Origin: a virus
UHGV virus genome: UHGV-0367640
Length of the DNA: 26,496 nt
Reading direction: 5' to 3' (one strand)
Notes under the pieces: generated by a model
Told to the model about the DNA's origin: nothing
What the model saw: only the letters and a program-made list of their open reading frames with translations
Database searches by the model: none
Shown here: positions 7,433-25,510 of the stretch, piece by piece
Layout: the number at the start of each line of letters is the position of its first letter
Numbering within the stretch: the first letter of the stretch is position 1
Made by a program: the position numbers and the translations under genes

Positions 7433-7464
7433 TCCGAAGCTCGTGCTGTTGAGCCGTTTCGCAC

Positions 7465-7488: not shown

Positions 7489-7493
7489 GGACT

Positions 7494-7835
7494 TCAACCA
7501 TCAACCTTTTTACACGGGAAAGATCCGATGATTTTCGGTGCATCCATGCTGTTCTGCAGAAGCTGGACGTTCAGGAAACGCGTTTCGGTGCCAGGGCGAC
7601 GAATGTATTCAAAGCCATAATTGTTGCCATCTTTAGCAGGCATAAGCCCCATATCAATCTTAATGCCATCAGCACCAAGATTTGTAATTTTCTGCGATGT
7701 GACGCGTTCACCGTTAATCATGTCCATTTCACCCAACCTTGCAGTGATGGTGTAAGGCCCACAATAAGCGGTGTACCCGCTTGCTGATGCCCCAAATGAC
7801 ATAAAGGCAACAATTAAAATGGCTAAGGCTTTCAA
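7494..7835 (-). CDS. Small secreted (signal-peptide) protein of unknown function
   Basis: 113 aa; N-terminus MKALAILIVAFMSFGASA|SGYT is a type-I signal peptide; two Cys in the mature part; TTG start at 7835 with GGGGG about 5 nt upstream, no in-frame ATG before an upstream stop; 2 nt after the hub gene stop. Confidence 0.5.
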   Translation of the reverse strand: MKALAILIVAFMSFGASASGYTAYCGPYTITARLGEMDMINGERVTSQKITNLGADGIKIDMGLMPAKDGNNYGFEYIRRPGTETRFLNVQLLQNSMDAPKIIGSFPCKKVDG

Positions 7836-7837
7836 AT

Positions 7838-8899: not shown

Positions 8900-8901
8900 G
8901 C

Positions 8902-9204
8902 TTACTCCGTTGATACCAGTAAATGACTGCGACCGCCCAGATCAGTTTTCGTGGGATAATCCTGAGTGTTGTCATCGCAGACCACCACCAGCTTAAAACC
9001 AAGCCCCATACAGGCGTACTGCGCCAGCAGATCAGCGCCAGTGACGAGAGGAATACCGGAGATTACCGGCTCTCCTCTGTCGTTCTGCAGGTCCATAATC
9101 CAGTAAGGATCGCGCCATATGATGCTAATCTGCCAAGTGACACCACCCAGGACGATGCTGAACTGCTGGTTGTCCGCTGTCAGCGGAATTTCCTGAATTG
9201 TCAT
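8902..9204 (-). CDS. Small tail/baseplate-associated protein
   Basis: 100-aa ORF, TAATG coupling with the upstream gene. Confidence 0.45.
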   Translation of the reverse strand: MTIQEIPLTADNQQFSIVLGGVTWQISIIWRDPYWIMDLQNDRGEPVISGIPLVTGADLLAQYACMGLGFKLVVVCDDNTQDYPTKTDLGGRSHLLVSTE

Positions 9205-9791
9205 TAGCCGCCTCCCAGTAATGACGCCACGTTACCCGTAATGCTTTTCAGCAGTGAAGTATCTGGAGGCTTTGTGGTTTTGTTGCCGCTGTTCTGTACC
9301 GCCGACGTGCTGGCCCCTTCCTTCATGTTGGTTTTATCCGCGACGGTAATCTGCTGTGTCCGGGAGATAATGACCTCCCTCAGGGTGAGGACGGCGGACA
9401 GGACGTTTTCGGTTGTCTTGTCCGTCGTCACTTCCAGCGCCCGGATCAACATGTTGCTGTACAGCCGTTTACCGGTTACCACATCGAAGGGGATACGGCT
9501 TTCCTGCAGATCCAGTAGCTCCTGATACGTCTGCTGAGGACTCAGGCCGAGCAGGCTGGTAGCCGTCAGATTACTGGCAAAATCCAGCAATGCGCCGCCA
9601 CCGGCGAAACCAACCTCCATCACCACTTCTGACGGTTTTTTATAGGCATGATCAGCGACAGCGGCCCCGACCTCTACCGGATGCTCTGTTATTTCAAGCA
9701 TATCTGTATGCTTCTCTGAAATAACAACACTGGGAACAATCATTCCTATTTTTCTGCTCTGCTGATGAAAAAGTGTAGAGAGAATATCCAC
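9204..9791 (-). CDS. Tail protein downstream of tape measure
   Basis: 195-aa ORF with GTG start overlapping the tape measure TAG stop by 1 nt. Confidence 0.45.
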   Translation of the reverse strand: MDILSTLFHQQSRKIGMIVPSVVISEKHTDMLEITEHPVEVGAAVADHAYKKPSEVVMEVGFAGGGALLDFASNLTATSLLGLSPQQTYQELLDLQESRIPFDVVTGKRLYSNMLIRALEVTTDKTTENVLSAVLTLREVIISRTQQITVADKTNMKEGASTSAVQNSGNKTTKPPDTSLLKSITGNVASLLGGG

Positions 9792-11779: not shown

Positions 11780-12011
11780 TATCCTCTCTCCATTTCTCAA
11801 TGCGCCGCTGGTTATCCGCTTTTACCGCCAGATGGTCATTCAAGAGAGCAATGTCATACAAATCGACAGAGCCATCTTTAAGTGCTGTATAAGGAATTAA
11901 CCCGGCGTCAACCGGATTGAGAAGGTAGGACAGCCCGTCCGGCAGGCTGTTAAACGTCAGCCCTGTTGCAGGCTCTGCGTCGTGCTGGTAAGGGGTGTAG
12001 GCAAAAAATTT
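11769..12011 (-). other. Programmed -1 frameshift extension of the tail assembly chaperone (G/GT-type)
   Basis: Slippery heptamer A_AAT_TTT in the zero frame at 12011..12005; the -1 frame stays open for about 78 codons and ends at TGA 11771..11769, overlapping the tape measure start. Confidence 0.6.
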
Positions 12012-12409
12012 CCCAGCGAATCGGCGACCACCCGCGCCACCATCTGCAGCATGGTTAGCAGGTCGATATCATCGAACATCAGCTGACCGCTGTTGAATAC
12101 CGGCGTCCATCCGTCCATGTGCTTACGTGACACTACGGCCAGGCAAGGATGAATAATCGCGTTGGTATCTTCTTCAGTCAGGGAAGACAGTTCCTCAGCG
12201 ATACGCGGGAGCATGGCTTCAAACACCGGTTTTAACTGCTCGAATTTCACGGTGTCGATTTTGCCGTCGGCAGGCAAACGGGAGCGAATGCTCCCGAAAT
12301 CTGACATCATTCCTGCCAGCACCGGCAGAAGTTTGCGGGTCACTTTCAGCTGATCAAAAACGCTGAGTTTTGCCGCGCGATATTTCACGCCTTTGATTTC
12401 GAATTCCAT
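11957..12409 (-). CDS. Tail assembly chaperone (zero-frame product)
   Basis: 150-aa ORF between tube and tape measure genes; ATG 12409; contains the slippery site near its 3' end. Confidence 0.7.
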   Translation of the reverse strand: MEFEIKGVKYRAAKLSVFDQLKVTRKLLPVLAGMMSDFGSIRSRLPADGKIDTVKFEQLKPVFEAMLPRIAEELSSLTEEDTNAIIHPCLAVVSRKHMDGWTPVFNSGQLMFDDIDLLTMLQMVARVVADSLGNFLPTPLTSTTQSLQQG

Positions 12410-12412
12410 GTA

Positions 12413-12853
12413 TTAAAACTCCCCGAGAACCTGGTCAATCTTGCCGCAGTCAAACACCCACGGCATCGTATTACCGGCCTTAGCGTTGGCGTTATCCGGC
12501 TGTTTCTGGAACGCCACGCTGCGCGCCGTGATGATGTCTCCGCTCACCTTGTTTCGGATCACAATGACGTTGTTCCCCCAGGTGGCAGAAGACTGGCTCT
12601 GTGCGTTATACGCCAGCGACAATTTTTTATTTGTCGGTGATGTCTTCAGAAGGTTAACGGTAATCGTCCCGCTTTTATCTGCATGGAGACTGTGCATCAC
12701 TTCGCCATCAGCACCGATGGTCATGGTGTTTTTAGGACCGCCCATCGCAACCACAATCCCCTCTTCAGAACTTGCCGAACCGTACCCGAGATCAATCGAA
12801 CCTGTCGGCCCGGTCAGCGTCGCAGTGACATCCATAAAAGAATAGGTAGACAT
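12413..12853 (-). CDS. Tail tube protein
   Basis: 146-aa ORF directly after the sheath gene; ATG 12853 with GGGG about 7 nt upstream. Confidence 0.7.
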   Translation of the reverse strand: MSTYSFMDVTATLTGPTGSIDLGYGSASSEEGIVVAMGGPKNTMTIGADGEVMHSLHADKSGTITVNLLKTSPTNKKLSLAYNAQSQSSATWGNNVIVIRNKVSGDIITARSVAFQKQPDNANAKAGNTMPWVFDCGKIDQVLGEF

Positions 12854-12863
12854 TCACTTCCCC

Positions 12864-14009
12864 TTAGCGAACAACGTTAATCTGTACGTCAGCGTAATGA
12901 ACCGCGCCTGCAAGTTTTATTGCAGCCTGAATCACCGGAGCCTTACGGGCTTCACGTTCTGATTGTGCCTGTTCATCCAGCGGCTGGGCGTATACGTAAT
13001 AACCTTTGGGCAGCGTGTCACCTGATGACAACTGGCCAAGGTCGCCACCGTTCCATACGCCCGGAGCAATCAGTCCATTCTGAACTGCCTGATCCAGTGA
13101 TTTTTCAACATTTGATAACAGTCGGGTAATACCGGCTTCAGTCTGGGGAACCTTCGTGGTGCTGGTATAAAGCAGGTTATAGAGGTTGGTCTGCACATAA
13201 TTCTGTAACCAGTCCAGGCCGTGGCGTTCATCAAAGAAATCGCCGTTAGCCATCACTCCCTGCTGGATGATAGCTGTATCATTCTGGTAGTACACGAACA
13301 CATTGCAGTTTTTTGCATCAAGTGCCGATGCCTGGCTGACTGTCAGTGTTTCATACCCGACACCCGGCTCCTGCTTAAACTTGAGCGTAATCGCGGTATT
13401 ACTGCCATTGAAATTAACCGTGAATGCCCGGCCAAATGCAGATAACGCAGCGTATTTATTACCCGATGAATACTGAATAAAACTGCGTGAATATCCGGCG
13501 GTTTTCAGTTTTGATGCCAAATCATCTCTGGATGCAGTCTGCAGGCATTTCTCATCGCTTGTCGTAATCGCCAGAATACGGCTTACAGAAGAGGATTCGA
13601 TCGCCGCAGCCACTTTCAGCCAGTCTGCATCCGGAATATCTGCATCGTCTGCAATCCCCAGCCCATACCATGAAGTATAATCAAGCATGGCATTCACAGC
13701 CTGCTCCAGCGTCTCAGGCGTGGCCTGTTCGCTGTCTCCATTCGTTTTCACCCAACGACCAACAAAAACCTCCTGAGGTTTCGGTGATTGTGAGAAAAAC
13801 ACCTGCGCAGCTTTATATTCTGGTGATTCCACGCCAAAATCTTTTCCAATATCTTCCGCGGCAGAATAACGACGAATGCGCTCACTTACCGGAATGATTG
13901 TGGACGGGCCGAGAATGAGTAATGCACCAAAATTTCGCCCTGATGCTGCACGCAGCGACATGATCACATCAACATTAACAACGTTTGATACAGGCAAGCC
14001 CTGTGCCAT
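12864..14009 (-). CDS. Contractile tail sheath protein
   Basis: 381-aa ORF preceding the tube gene; ATG 14009 with GGAG 9 nt upstream. Confidence 0.75.
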
Positions 14010-14012
14010 AGC

Positions 14013-14621
14013 TTAATCTCCGAAAAAGATGACTGGTGCTTCCACCAGCGATTTAATACCGTACTCGCGCACAACCTTCCGGCGCAGACGCACCGTCATA
14101 TCGTAGCGGCGGACCCATTGCTGATTAATAAGTTCAGGGAAGGGAGTCAGACCTGTGTAATCGCCAAGAGACAGCCCCAGCGCATTCAGTGCTGCATTGT
14201 TCTGCGGTACAGATATACCGTCACGAAACCGGGACGCATACACCATCCCCGCCGGTCCATAAAACGAAGCCATACACTCAATCATTTCATGCCGCCAGAG
14301 CTGAGAGCCATCATCGGTCTGTCTGGTGAATGCCGGGCTGTCATCACCTGACCATCCGATAACCCCAAACGCACACCAGTTCGTTTCAGCCGGTAGCAGT
14401 GGCGGCTGCTCTTTCTGCCAGCGCGGACGAACCATCCCGGCAGACAGACCGGAAACGTTACGCATCCACTGGCTTAACAGCCTGTCGAGCGCTTCGTCAT
14501 AATCCGGATCGCCACTGGTTGGTATCAGCCATCCGCACTCTGTGCTGGTGTTATTGCTCAACCGGAATTCCCCCATCAAACGGCAGCAACTCACAATGCG
14601 CCTGAACGAATCCGGCACCAT
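14013..14621 (-). CDS. Phage neck / tail completion protein (hypothetical)
   Basis: 202-aa ORF; start uncertain (ATG 14621 or ATG 14576), both overlap the upstream gene. Confidence 0.45.
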   Translation of the reverse strand: MVPDSFRRIVSCCRLMGEFRLSNNTSTECGWLIPTSGDPDYDEALDRLLSQWMRNVSGLSAGMVRPRWQKEQPPLLPAETNWCAFGVIGWSGDDSPAFTRQTDDGSQLWRHEMIECMASFYGPAGMVYASRFRDGISVPQNNAALNALGLSLGDYTGLTPFPELINQQWVRRYDMTVRLRRKVVREYGIKSLVEAPVIFFGD

Positions 14622-14940
14622 AAGCTGTATACGGGTCGACGAAGGTCACACGGTAATCACGGCCCTGATACGTCACGATATCGGCATCACGGCCAGTCTG
14701 GCCCTGCGTCAGTCGCTCAGTCGTCACAATCAGAATTGCACCACTGATTACCTGCCCGGCCTGCATACGACGGTTTTCCAGAGAGCGATCAACAGTAACG
14801 ACTCCGGCAAACTGCTTTTTAACTTCGCTGTCGCTGCCGATCCCGTCCTCATCCACCGTTTGCACACGGCGTGTTACCCACAAATTGAAGTCGCAAAAAT
14901 CGGGGTCAAAAAGCACATCTGTTACATCAAGAGTCGGCAT
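14551..14940 (-). CDS. Phage head-tail joining protein (hypothetical)
   Basis: 129-aa ORF, ATG 14940 with GAGGGA 5 nt upstream. Confidence 0.5.
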   Translation of the reverse strand: MPTLDVTDVLFDPDFCDFNLWVTRRVQTVDEDGIGSDSEVKKQFAGVVTVDRSLENRRMQAGQVISGAILIVTTERLTQGQTGRDADIVTYQGRDYRVTFVDPYTAYGAGFVQAHCELLPFDGGIPVEQ

Positions 14941-15481
14941 CTTTATCCCTCACAACATGGGTAATAGCTCTGCGATATTGCCCGGTATCAATTAATGGTT
15001 TCGCCAGTTCGGTTCCCGGAGATTCGCCAGCAGCACGCCGGGCAAGTTCCAGTGTTGCCCCCTTGCGCCCCCGACGAGCCCTGGCTTCAACAGTACTGTC
15101 AGCAAGCGGCGTAAAGCCGGTAATGGTCATGTAACGCCTGACGCCATTAGCGGCCAGCGTTCCGGCACGGTTGAGTGCGCTTTCTGCTCCCGCAGCATTA
15201 CCATCAAGTGCAGCCTGCGCCGCGACTTTGAGCTGCGGCACCGTCTGCTCTTCTGCCGATTTAACGCCGGGAACCAGGTGAGGTCGTGGCGGGATGTTCT
15301 GCTCTGGTGAGCCGTATTCGTTGAGGTAACCGATGCCCGCATTACCAAACGGAACATCATCCCGCCCGCTGTCTTCCGAAGGGATGCCGACCAGCACATC
15401 TTTTTTGGTTAACGACCTGAGCGCATCCAGAATGGCCTTAGCGTTATCCACCCTCGTTGTTACACCGCTTTTGAAACTCAT
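14927..15481 (-). CDS. Phage head-tail adaptor / head completion protein (hypothetical)
   Basis: 184-aa ORF, ATGA overlap with upstream gene. Confidence 0.5.
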
Positions 15482-15885
15482 AGCTGGCGACCACCTGCAC
15501 CGAACATCGTGATCAACTGATAAAATTCAGCGCCATATCGGGTGTTATTCCAGAAACCTGCATCAGGATTCAGCGTCGCGCTGGTGTCATAACTGACGCT
15601 TACCTTATCCACGGACTTTGAGGACTGAACACCATTGGTTGAACCGCCCGGACCACCAGCCAGCATCGCCCGGCTGTCTGCCGCCCAGAGCGTCATGTAG
15701 TGCGCAACGAACAACCCGGCAAAGTACGGAAACAACTTTTTGCCGGTGACGTTTTCGCTCAGCAGTTCATCGGCCAGATTCAGACGAAACTGGATTTGCG
15801 CTTCGGGATATTTGGCAGGGTCAGCAAACTGCGGGAAGTCGCGGCGAAAATCACTTACCGCTGGCAGACTTTGATTCTTTGGCAT
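15478..15885 (-). CDS. Phage head-tail connector protein (hypothetical)
   Basis: 135-aa ORF, ATG 15885 with GAGGT 5 nt upstream. Confidence 0.5.
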
Positions 15886-16072
15886 TTTTTACCTCGTTAC
15901 GCGCGTCTGTGGCTTTGCCAACGGATACTTCCGCGTGCGCACGAGTGAACCAGTGCGTGGCAACGTCTTCCTCCACAGCATGACGGCCTTTAACAAACTC
16001 GCGCCGAGAACCGTCGGGAAGCGTGAGCACAAACGGGGTATGTGCGTGTATTACTGCATCATTTTTTGCCAT
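15851..16072 (-). CDS. Small phage protein, Lys-rich C-terminus
   Basis: 73-aa ORF, ATG 16072 with AAGGATGA RBS; overlaps the next gene by 35 nt. Confidence 0.45.
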
Positions 16073-16113
16073 CGGGTCATCCTTAATGGCCCCACCAGGG
16101 GGCCATGTGGCTG

Positions 16114-16431
16114 TTAAATGCCATCAACGTACGAAATGGTTTCTTTGTACACTGGCTCGACTGCACCCAGCTTGCCGTAGTAAGTGACGATCTGATACAG
16201 ACCGCGATACTGCACCGGCACGCTCTGAAGCGGAACCAGCGGGTAGCGGACGTATTTTTTATCGTTGGTGTACGCAACCATGCGATCCTTTTTCCCCACA
16301 CCACGGCCTTTCAGCCATTTAACCGCGCGGATATTCAGCGGAACACCGTTCTGGTGATAGCTGATGGTGTTGGTCTGAAGATACGTCAACAGGGACTGGT
16401 TACCCGCAGATGAAACGATGATGCTGGACAA
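16114..16431 (-). CDS. Major capsid protein, C-terminal segment (downstream of an in-frame TAG)
   Basis: Same reading frame as 16441..17055, separated only by TAG 16443..16441 and three codons; no ATG and no SD in front of it. Confidence 0.5.
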   Translation of the reverse strand: MSSIIVSSAGNQSLLTYLQTNTISYHQNGVPLNIRAVKWLKGRGVGKKDRMVAYTNDKKYVRYPLVPLQSVPVQYRGLYQIVTYYGKLGAVEPVYKETISYVDGI

Positions 16432-16440
16432 CAGAGCAAA

Positions 16441-17055
16441 CTACTCAGGCGGGATCAGCAAATCACGCGGAACCACAGAGTAACCGGAAGCGGCCCACGC
16501 ATCAGACAGCGCCTGGTTAATGCTTGCGCGGATTTCGTCCGGTGTTGAGGTTGCCCACGTTTTGGCAGCGTTGTTGACAGGCACGCCGTCCAGGGTAACA
16601 AGGCCTTTCAGGTTTAATGCGGAATCGCCAACATATACCTGTTCATCGTTATCCATCTGCCATTTCAGTTGCATACCGTCATACTTCTGCGTATCAATCG
16701 GGCGGCCGACCTGCTGAGCAGCCTGCAATTCTATGACCGTCCAGCCAAGTTCCATCCCCCACAGGTTCAGCGGGTTACCGGATTTGCCGATATCCACGTT
16801 CACGCCAGCAATAGCGGTTGAGTCTTTGCCTACCCAGTTTTTGCCATTCGGATTTGCACCAGTACCCGCAGCGGCGAAGCTGGTATTCGTCCAGCTGGAA
16901 ATGTCATCTGCGATGGAGACATCTTCACGCAGTTGGATATCGCGGGTCCAGGTGTACCCCACCAGTGGCAGGTTCAGTGTCTGGTCGAGTCGTTCCAGCT
17001 CCCCGATGAGAAAGGCACCAGAGCTGTCAACGGTTGCCTGATCAAAAGTAATCAT
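16441..17055 (-). CDS. Major capsid protein, N-terminal segment (ends at an in-frame TAG)
   Basis: 204-aa ORF at the major capsid position, ATG 17055; too short alone for an HK97-fold capsid protein, and continues in frame into 16114..16431. Confidence 0.55.
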   Translation of the reverse strand: MITFDQATVDSSGAFLIGELERLDQTLNLPLVGYTWTRDIQLREDVSIADDISSWTNTSFAAAGTGANPNGKNWVGKDSTAIAGVNVDIGKSGNPLNLWGMELGWTVIELQAAQQVGRPIDTQKYDGMQLKWQMDNDEQVYVGDSALNLKGLVTLDGVPVNNAAKTWATSTPDEIRASINQALSDAWAASGYSVVPRDLLIPPE

Positions 17056-17066
17056 TCGTCTGTTCC

Positions 17067-17573
17067 TTAAATCTTCCAGGAAATTTCTGCATTGCCGTTA
17101 GCATCACCGGCACCTGTGAATTCAGCGTTGGTCAGCACCACGTTTTTGCCACTGACTGACGTGGCCATGAATCCACCCAGCGGCACTTTGATGGATTCAT
17201 CAGTGGAGACGACAACGTATACCGGGTCGCCTTTTTTGATGGTGCTGGCATCAAAATCAGAACCGAGATTAACGGTCACGTAGCCACGCTTCATGGCGTC
17301 GCCCGGGAAGTTCTTGCCACTCCCCACCTGGCGAACCATGTCCGGCTGCGAAGTGGTCGGATAAGGGCGCACGTAGATCCCCTTCACCTTGTCTGCGGTA
17401 TCACCATCTGCCAGCGGCACGAAAAAACCGTCATCATCGTATTTACCAGCCAGCCCATAGGCAGCGAAGGCGTTATCGGATTTAAGGACCACCGGTTCGA
17501 CGGTTAAGTCCTGCGGGCGAGAGACAGCCCCGGCAATGCCAACAGGCATCCGGTACAGAAATACATTATTCAT
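17067..17573 (-). CDS. Capsid-associated structural protein (decoration-like, hypothetical)
   Basis: 168-aa Gly/Asp-rich ORF between scaffold-like and capsid genes; ATG 17573 with AAAGGGT RBS. Confidence 0.5.
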   Translation of the reverse strand: MNNVFLYRMPVGIAGAVSRPQDLTVEPVVLKSDNAFAAYGLAGKYDDDGFFVPLADGDTADKVKGIYVRPYPTTSQPDMVRQVGSGKNFPGDAMKRGYVTVNLGSDFDASTIKKGDPVYVVVSTDESIKVPLGGFMATSVSGKNVVLTNAEFTGAGDANGNAEISWKI

Positions 17574-17576
17574 TTT

Positions 17577-18797
17577 TTACCCTTTACGGTTTGCCCAGAA
17601 TTCGGCGTTTTGTTTGTTCAGGGAAGCGATACTGGTCATGCCCATGTTTGGGCGCTGTGCATCGCCGGTGGTGGCGCGGGTGTTTCGCCCTTTGGCAATC
17701 TCAGACACGGCATTAAACGCCATGTCGACCGATTGTTTCGGTAATTTGCGGATATCCGCATCGCCGACTATCTGGCGAACCAGCGTTTTGTCAGCAGAAG
17801 CCAGAACCTCGCGTTTGAACGCGGTCGGTTTCATCTTACGGCTCAGATCGATACCCGGAACGATAACTTCGGCACGCCAGGCTGAGTCACCAGTAATCGT
17901 GGTTTCCTCTTCATCGTCCTCGCCGTCACCGGTCGGATTATCGTCAGGCTTATTGTCGTTATCGCCCGTCGCATTTCCTTCCAGCTTAGCCAGCAGGGCT
18001 TTCAGTAATGTTTTGAGGTCATCATCACTGTCGCCGGTTGGACCTCCGCCCATCTCTGGTGCTTTGTCCGGTAGCGGTTGCTGCGGGGACAGGTTGATGT
18101 TGAGATTAACGCCCTGCGGCAAATCCCCCTCATCTCCTGTAACCGATGCGGGAGCCGACTCCACCAGTTCGTTCATGGTGTCAGCGTCACCCGTTTTGAT
18201 GGCCGTGCGCATGCGGGTCCACCAGCTTTTCTTTTGATTTGCCATTGTGTCTCTGTCTCCAATTGCACAACGATTTCCGGCTCTGCCTTTAGGGACAAGA
18301 GCCACATGGTTTCCGGTAATATCGACCTGCTCGGCTTTACCTGGCTCGGTCTGCTCATACTCCGCGTCATAGCCGCACGACACTTCGCGCAGGCCATCTT
18401 CGATAAGCTGAATGGCGCTTTCGTCTTTGACGATAAGGTCAGCCAGCATCAAATCAGACAGCTCACCCGTCCCGCGCCGGACATTCTGGAGGTGCCCGAC
18501 AGCAAGCTCTTTCCAGTTCTCGGGATTTACCAGCCGCACATTCCCGTTTTCATCTTCAGGATGCAGAATCGTGATGCTCATCCCTTCGAATGAGGCAAGC
18601 GTGGCCGGATGGAATACCTGCTCAGGAGAACGCGTGACGACTATTTCACCGAACTTATCGGGTTTCAGTTTTGGCAGGTCATCAGCACCATAGAGCTGCT
18701 TACCTGTTCGTCCTATCGGCACGTCTTTGCACAGCAACGAGCCGTCAGCCAGCTGATAGCGGGTTTCCCCCAGCCGGGTATTGAAAAAATATTTCAT
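17577..18797 (-). CDS. Putative scaffolding protein
   Basis: 406-aa ORF with long acidic low-complexity segment (GDSDDD...DDEEETT), between MuF-like and capsid genes; ATG 18797 with AGGT RBS. Confidence 0.55.
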   Translation of the reverse strand: MKYFFNTRLGETRYQLADGSLLCKDVPIGRTGKQLYGADDLPKLKPDKFGEIVVTRSPEQVFHPATLASFEGMSITILHPEDENGNVRLVNPENWKELAVGHLQNVRRGTGELSDLMLADLIVKDESAIQLIEDGLREVSCGYDAEYEQTEPGKAEQVDITGNHVALVPKGRAGNRCAIGDRDTMANQKKSWWTRMRTAIKTGDADTMNELVESAPASVTGDEGDLPQGVNLNINLSPQQPLPDKAPEMGGGPTGDSDDDLKTLLKALLAKLEGNATGDNDNKPDDNPTGDGEDDEEETTITGDSAWRAEVIVPGIDLSRKMKPTAFKREVLASADKTLVRQIVGDADIRKLPKQSVDMAFNAVSEIAKGRNTRATTGDAQRPNMGMTSIASLNKQNAEFWANRKG

Positions 18798-18811
18798 GTG
18801 TTACCTGCGAT

Positions 18812-19585
18812 TCAGGCGGGATAAGAATGGGAGGTGGGAAAAACGATTTCTTTATAACAGCGACAATTCGGGAGCTCGCCAGCGTGACCGGTCATGCCAT
18901 CAAGCGTTGGAGGTTTGCCCCATTCGACAAATTTACCTTCCATTTCCCGATGAGAATGCCTGACGTCACCATCTTCGGCTGTACGCCAGATATAACCATT
19001 CGAACCAATTGACAGCGCACGCGCCTGATCCAGCGCGCCGGTTGCACGTCCAAGTTCAGTACGGGCAATCAGGTCAACTCTGGACTTTGCTATATCACCC
19101 GATGCGGCTATTTCTTTAGCAAAATGTTCTGCTCTCCCGCCGGTCACAACAGCTTCTGTCGCCCGATTCTGGATGTCGTACACCCTGTCAGCCGCCTCGA
19201 GGGGGAGCGATTTGATGTACTTGACCTGTTCGGCGATGATGGATTGCATCACCTGGCCCACAGGAGCGCTTTCCACAAGATTGCGGAGCTCGCGACTGAT
19301 GTTCTTGCTGTGTTGCCGCCAAACTTTCTCGTTCTGCCGGGTTAGGTCCGCAGTAAAGTTTTCCGCGACCTTTGTCGCCCAGGGGGTGATGATTTTACTG
19401 TAGCGTTCCAGCGCCTCAATAATTTCCGTGATACTGTCATTTGAACCATCGTAGTGACCATTGACGATGTCTCCGACCGCCCGCGCTATCCTGCGTAGGC
19501 TGGTTCGATAGCGGATTTCCGCCTGACGGTTCCTGCGGTTCGTCATCAGGTTCGCCGATGCCGGGCGGCGCTTCATCTTCGGCAT
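18812..19585 (-). CDS. Head morphogenesis protein, MuF / SPP1 gp7-like
   Basis: 257-aa ORF directly after the portal gene; start uncertain because ATG 19585 (or 19549) overlaps the portal 3' end by more than 100 nt. Confidence 0.6.
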   Translation of the reverse strand: MPKMKRRPASANLMTNRRNRQAEIRYRTSLRRIARAVGDIVNGHYDGSNDSITEIIEALERYSKIITPWATKVAENFTADLTRQNEKVWRQHSKNISRELRNLVESAPVGQVMQSIIAEQVKYIKSLPLEAADRVYDIQNRATEAVVTGGRAEHFAKEIAASGDIAKSRVDLIARTELGRATGALDQARALSIGSNGYIWRTAEDGDVRHSHREMEGKFVEWGKPPTLDGMTGHAGELPNCRCYKEIVFPTSHSYPA

Positions 19586-20903
19586 TCTCGATGTCCTCGT
19601 CGGTAATGGATGCCCCGATGCCGGTTACGTCAGAATTTTCGCGCAAATCAGTCATAGCGGCTTTCAGTGTCATCAGACCATCACCCAGCGCCGTACTGAT
19701 TGCGTTGGTGGTGTTTAACGCCACCGTTGAGCGATCGACATCAGACATTTGCCAGAGCGGGTTAAACTCAAACGTGAAATCATCCGGGAGCGGCTTGCCA
19801 AGTTCCGAACGATGCATGATGTCCAGTATCCGACGCACCGGAAGACGTAAACGCCTCTCCTGCAACGAACTGATGCGGTCGTAATAGTTGGCAAGGTCTG
19901 CATCACCGGTAGAAAATCCTTTCGGGGACTGTCCGAACAACCGCACCAGTGGGATACCAACAGCGCCACTAATCTGTTCTGCAAACTGTGATAGGATGTC
20001 ATCCAGACCACTGAAGCTGTACTGATGCGTTTCAAACTTATCCCGCGAGTCCATGAGCGTCATGCCTTCATTGCTCTGGAACTGTCGAATCAGGTCGATA
20101 TTCTTCAGCAACGCTTCATACGCAGGACCACCAAGTGCGATAAGCTCGCGTAGCTTCTCCACGCTGTAGGTACGCAAATGCGCTTTGTAGACCAGCTGCG
20201 CCGCGCCGACAGTAGCGCTGTCGAACGCGGTAAGACGATCCCAGATACGCTCTACAACCGACATTCCCCATTCGTTCTCGGTCATCTTCTGCTGAAATGG
20301 CAGCGTGACGCCATCAAAGCGAATCAGTCGACTGTGATGAATGCGCCAGGCAGGAATTCCCGTTGCTGTGGTCACCACATCGTAAAACTCAGGTTTACCC
20401 AGGTCCGGCCCCATATCTTTAATGCGGCGGGTCAGTACCGGGTCAATCATCCAGCGGTCGAGCGGGAGAATCCCCTTAAACTTGCCCTTACCGATGGTTT
20501 CGGGTCGCAGCGGGGTCATTGGTGCCTGCCCCTCAATCATGATGAAACCCACCGCGCCGCCGTAGAGGCGCGACCATTTCAGCACGTCATTCAGCGCATC
20601 CCAGATTTGCAACTCATCCAGTTGTGATTCGAGAATGCCACGATCTTTTGCATCAATTTCCGAAGTGATGCGAATGCCTTTGCGGGTCATATCATCCGGG
20701 ATAGCATCGACTGCTTCGCCGATGATCCAGGATGAACGATAGGACCATTCCACCAGCATGCGGTTACGACTGGTGAAATTAGCCCGGTAGGTGGATGCTG
20801 AGTGCTGGTTAGGTGTCTGCATCCCTACGCGGGCAATAAAATTCTCATAACCATCAGCTGTGGCCTGCGCAGTTCGCCGCAGGGCTCGTTTGTTTCGTGC
20901 CAT
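19437..20903 (-). CDS. Portal protein
   Basis: 488-aa ORF after the large terminase (ATGA overlap at 20903), acidic C-terminal tail. Confidence 0.75.
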   Translation of the reverse strand: MARNKRALRRTAQATADGYENFIARVGMQTPNQHSASTYRANFTSRNRMLVEWSYRSSWIIGEAVDAIPDDMTRKGIRITSEIDAKDRGILESQLDELQIWDALNDVLKWSRLYGGAVGFIMIEGQAPMTPLRPETIGKGKFKGILPLDRWMIDPVLTRRIKDMGPDLGKPEFYDVVTTATGIPAWRIHHSRLIRFDGVTLPFQQKMTENEWGMSVVERIWDRLTAFDSATVGAAQLVYKAHLRTYSVEKLRELIALGGPAYEALLKNIDLIRQFQSNEGMTLMDSRDKFETHQYSFSGLDDILSQFAEQISGAVGIPLVRLFGQSPKGFSTGDADLANYYDRISSLQERRLRLPVRRILDIMHRSELGKPLPDDFTFEFNPLWQMSDVDRSTVALNTTNAISTALGDGLMTLKAAMTDLRENSDVTGIGASITDEDIENAEDEAPPGIGEPDDEPQEPSGGNPLSNQPTQDSAGGRRHRQWSLRWFK

Positions 20904-22525
20904 CAGGCCTGTCTCCCTAGCAGCTCCCAGATGTTCAGGGCTGAATTCATTGGGGCATAGTTGATCATCACCGAGTCGGCAAGGTTTGGCGACCGGGTTC
21001 CATCAGGCTGTTTATCAATAACGATTTTTCCCACACTATTAATGGAATAGGTCGGCTGCGAAAGCTCGATGATGAGTTTATCTTTGAGTGCCATGCTACT
21101 GCTGATTGAGATGATTTCGTCCGGGTTGTAAGCCATACCTTCAACCACGGCGCGCCAGGTATTCTGAAAAAGTTTACGTAACCGCCACCAGCTCTGGGCT
21201 TTGGCGTTAGCGAAGAAGTCCTTGTTAAGACGTGCGGCTTGCCCGTTGTCCCCGCGAACAGCTTCATCATCCGGATCAAATACCGCGCCACTACCTCGAA
21301 ACGGTGTGGCGAGTATTGACGGTCGGCGCGCAGCGTTACGCAGTTCGTTGATAGCGCGTGCATCGCCGCGAACGCCAGCGCCCAGCCCGTCCTCGTCAAA
21401 GCGAAACTCTTCGAGGTTGTCCTGTTCGCAAAAGCCGAAAACCTTCTCGACGGACTGATAAATGTCGCTGCCCACACCGGACCATTCCCGCACATTCTCC
21501 AGAAGGAAGCCATGACGGGTGGAAAAGGCATTTTTGTCCCTGCCTTCGTCGGCGACATCCATCGCGCCAAGTCGTTTGCCTGTTGGCTGGATCCCCAGTT
21601 TGATATGCGCATCAACGGCAGCCTGTACCCATTCGGATGGAATCAGGACGCCTTCCGCTGATGCGCTGTAGTTCAGATCAAGTTCCTGTGCCACCACCAC
21701 CGGATTATCGATTTTCTCGCATTCCCTGCGATACCACTCTTCATCCTTGCGAGGATCATCCCGCCAGTGGAATGTGAATACCGGTATCTTCCCGCCATGA
21801 CGCTTCTGAGCGAACGGGTTCGCCATGCCATTAACTGAACTCAGGTCAATACGGCAACGCGTCGTTTGTGACAACGCCGCATCAATCAGCAGAGGACGCT
21901 GAAGGAATGCAGCCTCATCAACCAGATAAAGCGTGGTACGGTCACCACGACCAATATTATCGCCAGCCTCGCCTTTGATAACGGCACCAGTTTCAGGAAA
22001 CTCAACACGCATATATGGCGCGTGCTTCTTCTCGCTCCACGAACCGCGAAACTCTACAGGTAGTGTTTCCACGAACTTGCGCGCCTTCCAGAACAATGCT
22101 TTCGGGTCACCGGTGCTGTCGACGTATTCCTCTTTACGGGAGCCGAAACCGATAACCATTTCTTTGTTGAAGAGACAAAGCGAGCAGGCCAGTCCGATCG
22201 CGGTCCAACTGAGCCCCATTTCACGGGATTTTTCGGTAATACCATTCTCCCGATTGCCCCAGCGTTCCATAATCCAGTGGATCCACTCCTCCTGCTTAGG
22301 GAAGAGTAAAAACGGAATGGTCACCGGCAGGCCATAATCAATATTACGCGGGTCCGTTGTCATGCCCCAGTCGATGATGAACTGAGCCGGATTGGTTCGG
22401 TAAAACTGTTTTAGTGCAGGCAATATTTCAGGATTCTGGCGAATGCGCTGTAAGCGTTCCATCCGCCATTCAAAAACCATCTGGTAATCAGGATGTTTAA
22501 AATCGAAGGGGAATGGTAACGGCAT
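20903..22525 (-). CDS. Terminase large subunit
   Basis: 540-aa ORF after the small terminase; deviant Walker A-like [11 protein letters not shown] and Walker B-like [10 protein letters not shown]. Confidence 0.85.
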
Positions 22526-22527
22526 AC

Positions 22528-23079
22528 TTAGCCCATCATTTTTCTATACGCCTCTGCAGCCTGCTCCGGCGTTAAGTTGGTAATTTCTGTTCTGACTGGT
22601 CCTCCATCAGCGCCAGTCACTTCATTTTTGACGTTGTCTTTAAACGCCTGAACAGAAACATGACGCCCAAGCAACTCAAGGTTTTTAACCTTATCAGGCC
22701 ATTTGATTTTCTTCAGAAGTGCGGCGCTATCTGCGGATACCATCTCCACGACATCCATTCCTGATAGCGTTGTGCGCCATACCTTAGGCCAGTCTTTAAT
22801 GGGTTTTAGCTCACCGTTTTGCAGGAGAATGTCGAGCACATCCATCTGGTCGATTTCAAGAAGGCGATTAAGTACGTATTCTGCATTTATTCCAACAGAG
22901 TCATTGCGTTGTGCTTTCAATTCGGAGATTCTGAATTGTATGTCAGGTTTTGACATGTTTTCGGACGCAGTACGGTTGGCTGTCTTTGCGCTGTACCCCG
23001 CCCGAATAGCCGCTTGCGTGGCGTTTAAATCGATGAGGTACTCGCGACAGAACATTTCTTGTTTGTCAGTGAGCGCCAT
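22528..23079 (-). CDS. Terminase small subunit
   Basis: 183-aa ORF, N-terminus [30 protein letters not shown] typical of small terminases; ATG 23079 with AGGGGA 5 nt upstream. Confidence 0.8.
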
Positions 23080-23106
23080 ATTTTCCCCTGCTGATAAGGT
23101 AAATAA

Positions 23107-23631
23107 ATGAATCCTGAAATTTTTGAATCAAAGTTCATAATGAACGAAGCAACTTGGCAACGAATTGAAAGGTTAGTAAATACTGAAGATGATATTGGTT
23201 TGGTTTTAAGAGTACATCTGATTACAGAAGCAATGATTGAGGCATTTTGTTGCGCCGCTGTAGGTAACCAAAATCTATTTGATGGATTTGGTGAAAACTT
23301 AACCATGACCTATGCCGCAAAAATTCAGCTAGCTGCCAACCTCGGCCTAAATGAACACTCCGTCGCAGAACTTAAACGCCTAAATAGAATAAGAAATGTT
23401 CGCTCTCATCAAATAGACAACCCGGAAATAACTGACGCAGAAATTGAATCATTACGAACATTTATTAGCCGAGGTGGTCAGGAAGATCTCATTAACTCAG
23501 CAAGATTCGGCATAAAAGTTGGAGACATTGAGCTGAATCTTAACCGTCCAGATGCCAATAATCGTGAAAAATTCATAGCTATTCTTGGCAGCATCATCCT
23601 AAGGCTCACTAAACAAGTTGCAGGACAATAG
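23107..23631 (+). CDS. Hypothetical accessory protein with HEPN-type Rx4H motif (candidate abortive-infection/defense gene)
   Basis: 174-aa plus-strand ORF, ATG 23107 with AAGG about 9 nt upstream, divergent from the small terminase start 27 nt away; motif LKRLNRIRNVRSHQ contains RNxxxH. Confidence 0.55.
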   Translation: MNPEIFESKFIMNEATWQRIERLVNTEDDIGLVLRVHLITEAMIEAFCCAAVGNQNLFDGFGENLTMTYAAKIQLAANLGLNEHSVAELKRLNRIRNVRSHQIDNPEITDAEIESLRTFISRGGQEDLINSARFGIKVGDIELNLNRPDANNREKFIAILGSIILRLTKQVAGQ

Positions 23632-24212
23632 AGATCATTGACTGAGCTAATTGATTGTTTTAGCGCATAAACCTATACCACAAAATAGCCACTTATCACG
23701 CTTCATCATTCAATTCTGGCGTGAACTGTATGCGCCTCACATTGTCGGGAGAGAAATACAGTCACTCTCCCGTCTCGATCACAAGCGGCACAAAGCCGTT
23801 AACCAACTCATGCTGAAATCGTGACGTCTTGCTCGTAACGGTTTCGCCTGTTTGGGTGGTTAACGTGATTTGGTAGATGTTGGACATTGAGAATCTCTTT
23901 ATCCGCTTGTGGGGATATCAGTTAAGTTATCCCGTGTAGGGTATAAGCCATTGTCGAGACCACTCATTGAATGGACTCTGCAATAACCGATGTCTTTCCA
24001 TCAGTCCGCCACCACAAAGAATCTTTTTTGCCATAAGGCAGGAGGTTCATCTTTCAGTGGCTGCCAGTGTTATTTCCCCACTTACTGGCTTGGGTTGCTT
24101 CGCGGTACTGCCGTAACTGGTTACCCAGAATAAATTCCGGTTTCATTATCAAGCCCACCCGTAAATGGGCTTTGTAATGAAGAGTTGTTATGAAAATTGC
24201 TCTAAACAAGCA

Positions 24213-24701
24213 TTAATAGCCATCAGAAGTAATCGCTACAGATTTCAATCCCTCAATGTCATCCTTGGACAGGGCGAACCATTCACCGTGCTTTCTCTTT
24301 GCGGCAAATTTGCGATGAAGCATGTTTTCAGTTTCTCTTCCACCAGGGATCAGGCACTCAAGCTTCAAGCAGTCTGGTCCAGAGTTGCCAAGCGATTTGA
24401 TGCGTTGTGGAATGTTGGATGAATACCCAATTTTGGTTAGCCCAGTTTTCTTCGATGACAAAACGTATACCTGAGGAGGTTCTTTTCTCTGGTCTTCCAT
24501 TACACGTCTCATTGTTGCCATAAGTCCGCCGTGCATCAGCATTTCAACAAAGAACGCTGACCGAACACCTGACGACTTAAGCATGCCAGAAAATTCACTT
24601 GCCAATTCCATTAACTCTGCGATGTTTTCAGGAACTTTTTGGCAGTTATCTTCCTTGTATAAGGAAATCATTCTTTGAAGCTTTTCTTCTAATTGGTTCA
24701 T
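24213..24701 (-). CDS. T5orf172-domain protein (GIY-YIG-like superfamily)
   Basis: C-terminal half VYVLSSKKTGLTKIGYSSNIPQRIKSL...HGEWFAL matches the T5orf172 signature; start placed at internal ATG 24701 (AAAGG RBS about 10 nt upstream) rather than 24857 of the ORF track. Confidence 0.6.
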   Translation of the reverse strand: MNQLEEKLQRMISLYKEDNCQKVPENIAELMELASEFSGMLKSSGVRSAFFVEMLMHGGLMATMRRVMEDQRKEPPQVYVLSSKKTGLTKIGYSSNIPQRIKSLGNSGPDCLKLECLIPGGRETENMLHRKFAAKRKHGEWFALSKDDIEGLKSVAITSDGY

Positions 24702-25042
24702 AGCGTCTTTACCTTTTAGAAAGTGAGCCTGTCTCACAGAAAAGCCGCCCGAGAGAGGTTGCCACCTATAACGGCATTTCTCAGGCTCACTTACTGAAAG
24801 GCTCTCGTTAATATGCGCGTGAGATGCGCGGTTTACTGCAGATGTAAAAAGCCCCACAAATGCGAGGCTAAATCCTGGTATTTGTAATGACTGGCTCTTA
24901 TCTCAACGCGGCCCCTTACCGCGCGCCAGATGCTCAATCTCAAGCATCAGCAATGAGATGTTTAATCTGGATTCACTCCAGAAGTGATCACCACCCTGTC
25001 TACAGAGCCAGATGTGAAGGATGATGAGTAAAATTATCGCTA

Positions 25043-25510
25043 TCATCGAAGGCATTGCGTCCTGATGTATTCCTGAAGCGTTCTCAGTGCTGTTTGGTCG
25101 CGGATAATTCCGTCCCGGACACCGAGAACGTTTCGTCCAGCAACTGGAGAGAGTTCGACGGTGGCATCATTGCCCATGCCGGAGGCGCTGGAGGCTTCGG
25201 CTGAGGATGGCACAGGGCATTTTCCTTTGACGAACACCCGACCACCATTATCAAGCTTGCGCCGAAGAGCATCATTTTCAGCTTTCGCATCAGCTAACTC
25301 CTTCGTGTATTTAGCATCGAGTGCATCAGCAGAACGCTGGCGCTGCTGCATGTCAGTAATGGTGGCGGTCGCCTGCTTCAGCTCACTGACTTTTTTATCG
25401 CGCTGCTCTTTGTAGGCGATGGCGTTATCACGGTAATGATTAACAGCCCATGACAGGCAGACGATGATGCAGATAACCAGAGCGGAGATAATCGCGGTTA
25501 CTCTGCTCAT
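25043..25510 (-). CDS. Rz: i-spanin Rz
   Basis: 155-aa ORF with N-terminal TM segment, closely resembles lambda Rz; ATGA overlap with R. Confidence 0.85.
25084..25290 (-). CDS. Rz1: o-spanin Rz1 (lipoprotein, embedded in the +1 frame of Rz)
   Basis: 68-aa ORF wholly inside Rz; [19 protein letters not shown] lipobox followed by Pro-rich [11 protein letters not shown], as in lambda Rz1. Confidence 0.8.

What the first reader, a model, noticed from the sequence alone, without database searches (positions are those of the whole stretch)
23080..23631. Plus-strand accessory gene with HEPN-type RNxxxH motif, divergent from the small terminase
Seen in sequence: the only plus-strand gene inside the late region besides the acyltransferase; its ATG (23107) lies 27 nt from the terS ATG (23079) on the opposite strand, so its promoter must sit inside terS and late transcription runs antisense through it. 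This mirrors the position of opposite-strand morons such as lambda bor. The protein contains LKRLNRIRNVRSHQ, which matches the HEPN Rx4H pattern. Inference: a lysogen-expressed single-gene abortive-infection or defense candidate.
Basis: partly seen in the sequence, partly recalled or inferred. Interest (0 to 1): 0.7.

Follow-up and report, generated by a model that had tools for sequence, protein, structure and literature searches.

The report
HepS-like solo HEPN prophage defence candidate
A small gene inserted backwards between a prophage's lysis and DNA-packaging genes encodes a distant relative of HepS, a recently described single-protein RNA-cutting "suicide" defence, so it is probably another prophage-carried anti-phage nuclease rather than a new kind of system.

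Summary
There is a 174-aa ORF at 23107-23631 (+), 27 nt from the divergent terS start, and it carries RNVRSH. An Rx4H motif alone means little: 21% of shuffles of this protein contain one. The family context makes it meaningful. R96, N97 and H101 are 99% conserved and E41 is 100% conserved across 153 relatives.

The gene is AT-rich cargo in a ~2-kb island that is missing from a 97%-identical myovirus. In 40+ phage loci it always lies between the lysis and packaging genes, antisense to the late operon, with no conserved partner.

The catalytic core of HepS is conserved here. The HepS trigger-binding tails and one modelled tRNA-contact residue are not, so the trigger and target are unknown.

Expression in the lysogen, the promoter, RNase activity and defence are all untested.

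Verdict: a new, divergent, unannotated member of a known kind. Interest is moderate.

The parts
23107..23631 (+). CDS of the 174-aa solo HEPN protein (identical to E. coli WP_001067622.1, 'hypothetical protein'); member of phrog_5483
   Evidence: ORF. phrog_5483 E 1.7e-50. 100% aa identity to the EC931 gene. Named 'hypothetical protein' in every source. HEPN fold.
23392..23409 (+). Codons for R96-N97-V-R-S-H101, the HEPN Rx4H catalytic motif with the typical polar Asn after Arg
   Evidence: Sequence. R/N/H are 99% conserved in 153 relatives. They align to the HepS catalytic residues R100/N101/H105.
23188..23229 (+). Codons for the helix-1 motif D28-D-I-G-x-V-L-R35-x-H37-L-x-x-E41; E41 is the second conserved acidic residue typical of HEPN domains
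   Evidence: E41 100%, H37 95%, D28 90% conserved. The second conserved acidic residue of HEPN domains is described in PMC3710099.
23096..23099 (+). Shine-Dalgarno-like AAGG, 7 nt upstream of the ATG
   Evidence: Read. Diverged homologues have AAGGAG or GGAGG at the same distance.
23080..23106 (.). 27-nt divergent spacer between the terS ATG and the HEPN ATG; too short to hold a full promoter
   Evidence: No sigma-70 consensus site upstream of the ATG.
22528..23079 (-). Small terminase subunit (terS), first gene of the packaging module, divergent from the HEPN gene; any HEPN promoter must lie inside its 5' end
   Evidence: Pfam Terminase_2 E 9.9e-40.
23080..25042 (.). Accessory island of about 1.96 kb between Rz and terS, absent from the closest sequenced phage. 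It holds the HEPN gene (+), orf41 (-), a conserved unannotated stretch, the T5orf172 gene (-) and a 50-aa phrog_11822 ORF (-)
   Evidence: vB_EcoM-611R5 is 97% identical over 2824-22710. In it Rz and terS are 62 nt apart. Lower GC.
22637..23952 (.). Mosaic block (5' two-thirds of terS + HEPN gene + orf41) shared at 98.3% identity with P22-like prophages that have an unrelated large terminase
   Evidence: blastn against L003 (E. coli EC931) and L015. Annotation of EC931.
23762..23887 (-). 41-aa ORF of unknown function (phrog_6581), late-operon orientation, convergent with the HEPN gene; co-occurs in only part of the homologous loci
   Evidence: phrog_6581 E 3e-13. Present in L003, L014-L018, L022, L049 and L051 only.
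24213..24857 (-). T5orf172/MUG113 (GIY-YIG-like) protein, a second cargo gene of the island; not linked to the HEPN gene in other loci
   Evidence: Pfam MUG113 1.4e-14 and T5orf172 4.9e-10. phrog_4284. PADLOC PDC-S57 1.2e-5. No hit covering more than half of it in the other loci.
25043..25510 (-). Rz-type spanin, last gene of the lysis cassette; far boundary of the island
   Evidence: ORF. Rz homologues lie on the opposite strand 3' of the HEPN gene in about 25 loci. Endolysin phrog_90 lies next to it.

Best explanation
The gene encodes a stand-alone HEPN ribonuclease of the HepS superfamily. It is carried as dispensable cargo (a moron) by temperate phages, in the slot between the lysis cassette and the packaging genes.

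**Proposed mechanism, by homology with HepS. Each step is inferred, not shown.**
- The protein is made in the lysogen from its own promoter. It rests as an inactive homo-oligomer in which the Rx4H dyads of two protomers are not aligned.
- A protein made by a superinfecting phage binds it and opens the composite active site.
- R96, N97 and H101 then cleave RNA, most likely tRNA anticodon loops. Translation stops and the infection aborts before progeny are released.

**Where it probably differs from HepS**
- It lacks the N- and C-terminal tails that HepS uses to clamp the siphovirus J tail-tip peptide.
- It lacks one HepS residue modelled to contact tRNA.
- Its trigger, and perhaps its RNA target, are therefore probably different.

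**Orientation**
- The gene is always antisense to the late operon. That would let late transcription dampen its expression during the carrier prophage's own lytic growth. This is inference.
For: **Shown here**
- It is a real gene under constraint.
- Homology to HepS:
  - The family profile hits HepS in PDB sequences at E 2e-4, aligned across K72...LGL...N-IRN-xx-H-I...ITD.
  - HepS hits intermediate family members at up to 50 bits.
  - hhalign of the family against a HepS-containing group gives 99.7%, E 1.9e-26, 149 columns.
- HepS catalytic and switch residues are conserved: R100/N101/H105/I107 correspond to R96/N97/H101/I103.
- Cargo status: AT-rich, absent from the 97%-identical phage, and present in only 2 of 5426 complete E. 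coli genomes.
- It is carried by a myovirus (this window), a P22-like prophage and the phages phi80 and FSL SP-016. The morphotype labels for those last three rest on my own knowledge.
- Conserved slot, opposite strand, and no conserved same-strand neighbour or overlapping antisense ORF.
- One natural allele (L017) has R96->stop and H101->Tyr, as expected if the active site can be costly.

**From the literature**
- HepS is a partner-less abortive-infection anticodon nuclease that needs R100 and H105 and is activated by a phage structural protein (PMC13043305).
Against: - No experiment or transcript data show that the gene is expressed in lysogens. No consensus promoter was found.
- Identity to HepS is only 18-22%. 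At whole-library scale the direct profile hit on HepS is not significant (E 2.1), so the link rests on intermediates, profile-profile comparison and structure. Most members of the HepS-side group were themselves retrieved by this family's profile.
- HepS trigger-contact residues (S13, D15, S202, T203), Y20 and the tRNA-contact K71 have no conserved counterpart. Interface residue K78 corresponds to Q74. Oligomeric state, trigger and substrate cannot be carried over.
- PADLOC (2023) has no model for it.
- HEPN proteins also act in TA systems, RNA processing and non-catalytic regulation.
Confidence: 0.6

Rival explanations
1. It is a HEPN RNase toxin that serves the prophage or host in another way. 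Examples are an addiction or stabilisation toxin whose antidote is elsewhere (protein or RNA), or a stress-activated growth regulator. It would not be a phage-sensing defence.
For: - The L017 allele, hit at both catalytic residues, shows the activity can be selected against.
- Gifsy-1 is reported to carry other anticodon nucleases activated by stress.
Against: - There is no adjacent MNT or other conserved neighbour on either strand across 40+ loci.
- There is no conserved overlapping antisense ORF.
- Rfam finds no RNA antitoxin-like element.
- The closest characterised relative is non-toxic alone and is triggered by a phage protein.
Confidence: 0.13
2. It works for the phage during lytic growth, for example by host RNA shut-off, processing of late transcripts, or degradation of a host immune signal (anti-defence). 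It would not work for the lysogen.
For: - It lies within the late region next to terS.
- Some HEPN domains process RNAs or degrade cyclic oligoadenylates, as stated in the DARNA preprint.
Against: - It is always on the strand opposite the late operon.
- It is dispensable: a 97%-identical phage lacks it.
- It is rare and patchy and AT-rich.
- These are hallmarks of lysogen-expressed cargo such as lambda bor (the bor comparison rests on my own knowledge).
Confidence: 0.08
3. It is a non-catalytic HEPN-fold regulator like MtlR/YggD, acting by binding a protein or RNA partner rather than by cleavage.
Against: - Part of the MtlR family has lost the Rx4-6H motif, and MtlR sits in mannitol operons (PMC3710099).
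- Here R, N and H are 99% conserved, and the context is phage cargo.
- No Pfam MtlR hit at E<=1.
Confidence: 0.05
4. It is an inert remnant: an ORF kept by hitch-hiking with terS, without function.
For: - It lies in a mosaic block with the 5' part of terS.
- No promoter was found.
- One pseudogenised copy exists.
Against: - Homologues from 38% to 100% identity keep length, fold-defining residues and strong ribosome-binding sites next to unrelated upstream genes.
- dN is far below dS.
- 366 relatives at E<1e-3 share the same motif constellation.
Confidence: 0.03

Closest known systems
HepS (STM14_3211, 'HEPN Solo'), Gifsy-1 prophage of Salmonella Typhimurium; PDB 9oij/9oik; Nature 2026, PMC13043305
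   Same: - A stand-alone HEPN protein of about 170-210 aa, encoded on a temperate phage with no partner gene.
- Profile-level homology.
- Catalytic R/N/H, the switch residue Ile after His, K76/K72, L83/L79 and G84/G80 are conserved.
   Different: - Only 18-22% identity, outside the 35-50% HepS clade described in the paper.
- 36 aa shorter. It lacks the C-terminal tail and the N-terminal residues that build the trigger-binding beta-sheet (S13, D15, S202, T203). Y20, K71 and K78 are not conserved.
[quoted passage not shown] This family lies between Rz and terS/cos and is always antisense to the late operon.
- Carriers include a myovirus and a P22-like prophage, which on my own knowledge have no lambda-type J tail tip.
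Tha/Ith (tail-activated HEPN system) of Staphylococcus aureus prophages, PMC11087260
   Same: - A prophage-encoded HEPN RNase defence triggered by a structural protein of the incoming phage.
- Antisense transcription is part of how autoimmunity is avoided on induction.
   Different: - Described as an entirely different system from HepS.
[quoted passage not shown] No conserved overlapping antisense ORF exists here.
Lambda bor and other opposite-strand morons downstream of Rz (own knowledge)
   Same: Same slot (after the lysis cassette, before cos or the terminase genes) and same orientation against the late operon. AT-rich, dispensable cargo.
   Different: Bor is an outer-membrane lipoprotein for serum resistance. 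There is no sequence or fold relation; the analogy is positional only.
MtlR/YggD HEPN-fold regulators (PDB 3c8g, 3brj, 6kcr)
   Same: Second-best structural neighbours, of similar size.
   Different: MtlR genes sit in chromosomal mannitol operons and part of the family has lost Rx4-6H. Here the motif is invariant and the gene is phage cargo.
HEPN-MNT (HepT/MntA) toxin-antitoxin pairs and Abi HEPN proteins (AbiD/F Abi_2, AbiA C-terminal HEPN)
   Same: HEPN fold and Rx4-6H RNase motif. Relatives give sub-threshold Pfam hits to DUF4145, HEPN_RiboL-PSP, Abi_2, HEPN_Swt1 and HEPN_Cthe2314.

Membership tests
HEPN superfamily | All-alpha four-helix up-down HEPN fold | tested here: met
HEPN superfamily | Rx4-6H motif with a polar residue (N/D/H) right after Arg | tested here: met
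   R96-N97-x3-H101. R, N and H are each 99% conserved in 153 relatives. Feature definition from PMC3710099.
HEPN superfamily | Second conserved acidic residue in the first core helix | tested here: met
   E41 is 100% conserved. It is not in the classic Ex3[KR] form; here it is E41x3E45.
HEPN superfamily | Metal-independent endoribonuclease activity | not testable with these tools
   Needs purified protein and an RNA cleavage assay.
HepS family (solo HEPN abortive-infection nuclease) | Stand-alone protein under 250 aa without extra domains | tested here: met
   174 aa, a single domain in the model, no other Pfam domain.
HepS family (solo HEPN abortive-infection nuclease) | Sequence homology to HepS detectable by iterative or profile search | tested here: met
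   hhalign 99.7%, E 1.9e-26. Profile against PDB sequences, E 2e-4. HepS against intermediates, up to 50 bits. Caveat: the direct profile hit is E 2.1 at whole-library scale.
HepS family (solo HEPN abortive-infection nuclease) | Membership of the HepS clade proper (35-50% identity to HepS, as drawn in the paper) | tested here: not met
   18-22% identity. Clade definition. Whether the protein is among the paper's 393 wider homologues could not be checked, because the supplements are not held.
HepS family (solo HEPN abortive-infection nuclease) | Catalytic R100/N101/H105 and switch residue I107 | tested here: met
   They align to R96/N97/H101/I103.
HepS family (solo HEPN abortive-infection nuclease) | Tetramer, with interface residues F66, K78 and L83 | tested here: inconclusive
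   Counterparts are L57, Q74 and L79: one identical, one conservative, one changed. No multimer prediction was possible with these tools.
HepS family (solo HEPN abortive-infection nuclease) | N- and C-terminal tails that form a composite beta-sheet with the J trigger peptide (S13, D15, S202, T203) | tested here: not met
   The protein ends 1-2 residues after the last helix. S13, S202 and T203 have no counterpart and D15 aligns to S8.
HepS family (solo HEPN abortive-infection nuclease) | No conserved partner gene; prophage-encoded | tested here: met
   41 viral loci plus phi80, FSL SP-016 and EC931. Neighbours vary and only the slot is conserved.
HepS family (solo HEPN abortive-infection nuclease) | Activation by the siphovirus J tail tip; cleavage of tRNA-Thr/Ile/Ser anticodon loops; abortive-infection phenotype | not testable with these tools
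   Experimental. The modelled tRNA-contact residue K71 is M67 here.
HEPN-MNT toxin-antitoxin | Adjacent co-transcribed MNT nucleotidyltransferase antitoxin | tested here: not met
   Upstream is the divergent terS. Downstream there is only a 57-aa plus-strand ORF with no PHROG hit, then minus-strand ORFs. No conserved neighbour across loci.
Tha/Ith | Small inhibitor gene overlapping the nuclease gene in antisense | tested here: not met
   Antisense open stretches are not conserved among homologous loci.
MtlR/YggD | Located in a mannitol utilisation operon | tested here: not met
   Phage late-region context. Catalytic motif invariant. Family description.
Abi_2 (AbiD/AbiF) and other Pfam HEPN families | Score above the Pfam gathering cut-off | tested here: not met
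   For the window protein the only Pfam hit is DUF6548, at 14.7 bits against a cut-off of 27.3. Relatives give only sub-threshold HEPN-family hits.

The most novel reading that the evidence does not exclude
This subfamily (phrog_5483) would be a functionally distinct branch of solo HEPN defences, in two respects.
- It would sense a trigger other than the lambda-type J tail tip. It lacks the HepS trigger-binding tails, and its carriers include a myovirus and a P22-like prophage as well as phi80.
- Its invariant placement head-on against the late operon, at the lysis/packaging junction, would itself be the self-immunity device. Q-dependent late transcription would silence the nuclease gene by transcriptional interference or antisense RNA when the carrier prophage is induced, with no inhibitor protein (unlike Tha/Ith) and no trigger escape (unlike Gifsy-1).
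Probability: 0.22. Interest if true: 0.65.

Novelty: new member of a known kind. Interest (0 to 1): 0.45.

Why it matters
**Annotation.** It would put a function on a protein that every database calls "hypothetical". That covers WP_001067622.1, phi80 gp63 and phrog_5483, seen on more than 500 contigs of E. coli, E. albertii and Klebsiella aerogenes.

**Reach of the HepS paradigm.** HepS was characterised in one Salmonella siphovirus prophage. This would extend it to a second, widespread branch whose carriers include a myovirus and a P22-like prophage.

**New recognition rules.** The catalytic core is conserved but the sensor parts are not. The branch is therefore a ready-made comparison for how solo HEPN nucleases recognise phages and choose tRNAs.

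**Self-immunity.** The conserved antisense placement offers a simple, testable model for how a prophage avoids being killed by its own abortive-infection gene.

**Prophage annotation.** It marks the Rz-terS junction of lambdoid-type late regions as a defence-cargo slot worth scanning.

Tried and rejected
**Database searches that gave nothing useful**
- Pfam, NCBIfam and PADLOC on the protein: no usable hit. The only Pfam hit was DUF6548 at 14.7 bits, below cut-off.
- phmmer of the single sequence against PDB sequences: nothing significant. The family profile was needed.
- BFVD viral structure library: no match. AFDB50 was not available.
- Rfam, at gathering and at E<=1, on the locus: nothing, so no known RNA antitoxin or riboswitch.
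- tRNA scan of the window: none, so the phage carries no decoy or replacement tRNAs here.

**Getting the HepS sequence**
- tblastn of a 55-aa fragment against INPHARED found nothing.
- The word-indexed protein search with that fragment found nothing and cost one of three searches.
- It was recovered from IMG/VR loci instead.

**Other dead ends**
- HepS paper supplements, which list the 393 homologues, are not held. I could not check whether this protein is already listed.
- Promoter search by the tool's consensus scan and my own 8/12 scan on 11 diverged loci found no shared sigma-70 site. My own reading of the sequence found only a weak candidate inside terS (TTGACA at 22950-22955, 15-nt spacer, TACGGT). 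I do not rely on it.

**Hypotheses considered and dropped**
- An ith-like inhibitor overlapping in antisense: open antisense stretches are not conserved.
- orf41 or the T5orf172 gene as a partner: orf41 accompanies the gene in only some loci, and no hit covering more than half of T5orf172 was found in any other locus.
- Functional coupling with a particular terS allele: terS similarity does not track HEPN similarity. For example, in L049 and L051 terS is 71-73% identical but the HEPN protein only 39-42%.

Full report
**1. The observation**

The window holds an ATG-initiated ORF at 23107-23631 on the plus strand, 174 aa long. Immediately to its left, on the minus strand, lies a 183-aa ORF at 23079-22528 that is a small terminase subunit (Pfam Terminase_2, E 1e-39). 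The two start codons are separated by 27 nt, at 23080-23106.

An AAGG lies 7 nt before the plus-strand ATG. The protein contains LKRLNRIRNVRSHQ, that is R96-N97-V-R-S-H101, encoded at 23392-23409.

PHROG assignments show the rest of the window is the late region of a temperate myovirus, all on the minus strand. In order it runs:
- holin, endolysin and Rz;
- terS, terL, portal, and an ORF with head-maturation-protease matches;
- sheath, tape measure, baseplate and tail fibre.

An O-acetyltransferase on the plus strand sits at the far end. Other plus-strand ORFs are shadows of longer minus-strand genes.

**2. Is it more than chance?**

The motif by itself is not. Among shuffles of this protein, 21% contain Rx4H and 49% contain Rx4-6H. 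The evidence comes from the family.

| Search | Result |
|---|---|
| Word-indexed search | 16 clusters |
| Exhaustive profile search | 366 proteins at E<1e-3, 75 at E<1e-10, almost all 160-210 aa |
| Retrieved proteins with Rx4H | 159 of 166 |

In an alignment of 153 proteins of 140-260 aa, conservation of the window's residues is as follows:

| Residue | Conservation |
|---|---|
| E41 | 100% |
| R96, N97, H101 | 99% each |
| H37 | 95% |
| D28 | 90% |
| K72 | 88% |

Against a 76%-identical copy, dN is 0.17 while dS is saturated. Diverged copies keep strong ribosome-binding sites next to unrelated upstream genes. This is a real, constrained gene.

**3. What it is**

Curated libraries are silent. 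There is no Pfam, NCBIfam or PADLOC hit. The only family match is phrog_5483, of unknown function. Every public source calls the exact protein "hypothetical protein" (E. coli, E. albertii, K. aerogenes; 548 contigs).

An AlphaFold2 model built on 15 homologues is confident (pLDDT 88.3, pTM 0.85).
- Foldseek against the PDB puts four chains of HepS (9oij, 9oik) on top, with probability 1.0.
- A run of accepted HEPN domains follows: sacsin, AF0298, HEPN-MNT toxins, AbiA, Csm6 and LsoA.

The features listed for HEPN domains in the Anantharaman et al. survey are all present: Rx4-6H, a polar residue after Arg, and a second conserved acidic residue.

**4. Relation to HepS**

HepS (STM14_3211, 210 aa) is the "HEPN Solo" abortive-infection protein of the Gifsy-1 prophage. 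The paper (PMC13043305) reports the following:
- It is a resting tetramer.
- It is opened by direct binding of the siphovirus J tail-tip peptide.
- It then cleaves tRNA-Thr, Ile and Ser anticodon loops.
- R100 and H105 are essential.

I recovered the HepS sequence from IMG/VR prophage loci. The evidence for homology is:
- The family profile finds HepS among PDB sequences at E 2e-4, with a convincing alignment across the core (K..A..LGL....N.IRN..H.I..ITD).
- HepS in turn hits many of the proteins retrieved by my profile, at up to 50 bits.
- Profile-profile comparison of the window's family with a group made of HepS and those intermediates gives 99.7% probability, E 1.9e-26, over 149 columns.

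Two caveats apply. The direct profile hit would be E 2.1 at whole-library scale. Pairwise identity is only 18-22%, outside the 35-50% clade the authors call close homologues. So the protein belongs to the same superfamily of small solo HEPN proteins, but to a different branch.

Residue mapping from HepS to the window protein:

| HepS residue | Role in HepS | Window protein |
|---|---|---|
| R100, N101, H105 | catalytic | R96, N97, H101 (conserved) |
| I107 | switch | I103 (conserved) |
| K76, L83, G84 | core | K72, L79, G80 (conserved) |
| F66 | tetramer interface | L57 (conservative change) |
| K78 | tetramer interface | Q74 (changed) |
| K71 | modelled tRNA contact | M67 (changed) |
| Y20 | switch partner of I107 | N13 (changed) |
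| S13, D15, S202, T203 | trigger contacts | absent; the protein ends right after its last helix |

The catalytic engine is conserved. The sensor, and perhaps the substrate-selecting parts, are not.

**5. Genomic anatomy**

The gene is cargo.
- GC falls to 39-41% over it, against about 52% in the structural genes.
- The closest sequenced phage, E. coli myovirus vB_EcoM-611R5, is 97% identical over 2824-22710. In it Rz is followed by terS after 62 nt.
- The window therefore carries an island of about 1.96 kb (23080-25042). It holds a T5orf172/GIY-YIG-like gene, small ORFs, a 41-aa ORF (phrog_6581) and the HEPN gene.
- A block at 22637-23952 is 98.3% identical to P22-like prophages of E. coli EC931 and others that have an unrelated large terminase. 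The block comprises the 5' two-thirds of terS, the HEPN gene and orf41, so the gene moves by recombination within terS.
- Only 2 of 5426 complete E. coli genomes have it.

Across 41 IMG/VR loci plus phi80 (gp63, 30% identity) and Salmonella phage FSL SP-016 (59%), the gene always lies just after the lysis cassette and before terS or the cos-proximal genes. It is always on the opposite strand. Neighbours vary. No same-strand partner and no overlapping antisense ORF is conserved. Rfam finds nothing.

[quoted passage not shown] It is on the same strand as its upstream ORF and as the only detectable Rz homologues in the HepS loci.

**6. Mechanism proposed**

Shown: the fold, family membership, the conserved catalytic constellation, cargo status, and the conserved slot and orientation.

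Inferred from HepS:
- expression in the lysogen;
- an inactive oligomer;
- activation by a phage protein;
- RNA (probably tRNA) cleavage;
- abortive infection.

Inferred from the anatomy:
- The trigger probably differs from J. The tails that bind it are missing, and the window's carrier is a myovirus while the EC931 carrier is P22-like. On my own knowledge, such phages have no lambda-type tail tip.
- Head-on late transcription could silence the gene during the carrier's own lytic cycle. Antisense architecture is already known to matter for a different prophage HEPN system, Tha/Ith.

One natural allele (L017, 89% identical) has R96->stop and H101->Tyr. Both changes fall on the catalytic dyad, while 40 of 41 loci are intact. 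This fits an activity that can be costly, but it is a single case.

**7. Rivals**

- A TA-like or stress toxin. There is no partner, and the closest relative is harmless alone.
- A lytic-cycle function. The orientation is wrong, and the gene is dispensable and patchy.
- A non-catalytic MtlR-like regulator. The motif is invariant and the context is wrong.
- An inert remnant. The gene is strongly constrained.

I put the HepS-like defence reading at about 0.6. The narrower claim, "HEPN fold, HepS superfamily", I put at about 0.9.

**8. Gaps**

- No promoter was found, so expression in lysogens is unproven.
- No multimer model could be made.
- The HepS paper's list of 393 homologues is not available to me. 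The protein may already be catalogued there.

**9. Verdict**

The kind is now known, since HepS was published in January 2026.

This is a new, divergent and so far unannotated member, not a new category. Interest is moderate. The testable points of interest are its unknown trigger and the invariant antisense placement.

Noticed in passing
window 23912-24180: A stretch of about 270 nt with no convincing ORF and no significant PHROG hit. It is 94-98% identical to unannotated DNA in many lambdoid and P22-like phages (HK022 39681-39949, HK140, mEp234/235, N7, Kapi1, SEN22 and others). In HK022 it lies about 0.8 kb from the right end of the genome. It may be a conserved non-coding element of the lysis-to-packaging junction. 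Rfam finds nothing.
   Followed up: partly
L017 8001-8522 (IMGVR_UViG_2648501357_000002); also P0012: An 89%-identical copy of the HEPN gene has the catalytic Arg codon changed to a stop (R96*) and the catalytic His changed to Tyr (H101Y). A 95-aa protein annotated in 'Enterobacteriaceae bacterium ATCC 29904' looks like the same truncated allele. It may be natural inactivation of a costly nuclease.
   Followed up: partly
window 24213-24857 (-): A T5orf172/MUG113 (GIY-YIG-like) protein lies in the same accessory island (phrog_4284). It has a weak PADLOC hit to candidate system PDC-S57 (E 1.2e-5). The PHROG profile aligns only from residue 41, so the real start is probably downstream of the listed GTG. 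It may be a second defence or homing-type cargo gene.
   Followed up: partly
window 22637-23952 vs L003/L015: There is a recombination joint inside terS. The 5' two-thirds of terS, the HEPN gene and orf41 are 98.3% identical to P22-like prophages. The 3' third of terS and terL are not, which fits exchange at the boundary between the DNA-binding and TerL-binding parts of terS.
   Followed up: yes
window 24903-25055 (-): A 50-aa hydrophobic ORF matches phrog_11822 over its full length (E 4.8e-37). It starts just inside the end of Rz. Function unknown.
   Followed up: no
window 24142-24181: A 16-nt inverted repeat (88% complementary, 8-nt loop) lies just downstream of the T5orf172 gene. It could be a terminator-like hairpin between the convergent T5orf172 and HEPN transcription units, but it has no clear T-tract.
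   Followed up: no
window 804-2003 (+): An O-antigen or O-acetyltransferase gene (phrog_3333, E 1.8e-44) lies on the plus strand after the tail-fibre assembly gene. It is a second lysogenic-conversion-type cargo gene at the other end of the late region.
   Followed up: no
L001 1172-1786 (phage phi80, PHI80_63): The well-studied phage phi80 carries a 30%-identical member of this family (204 aa, RNDLAH motif, longer C-terminal tail). It lies between rha and the cos-proximal genes and is annotated only as a hypothetical protein. It is a convenient model for testing the family.
   Followed up: partly
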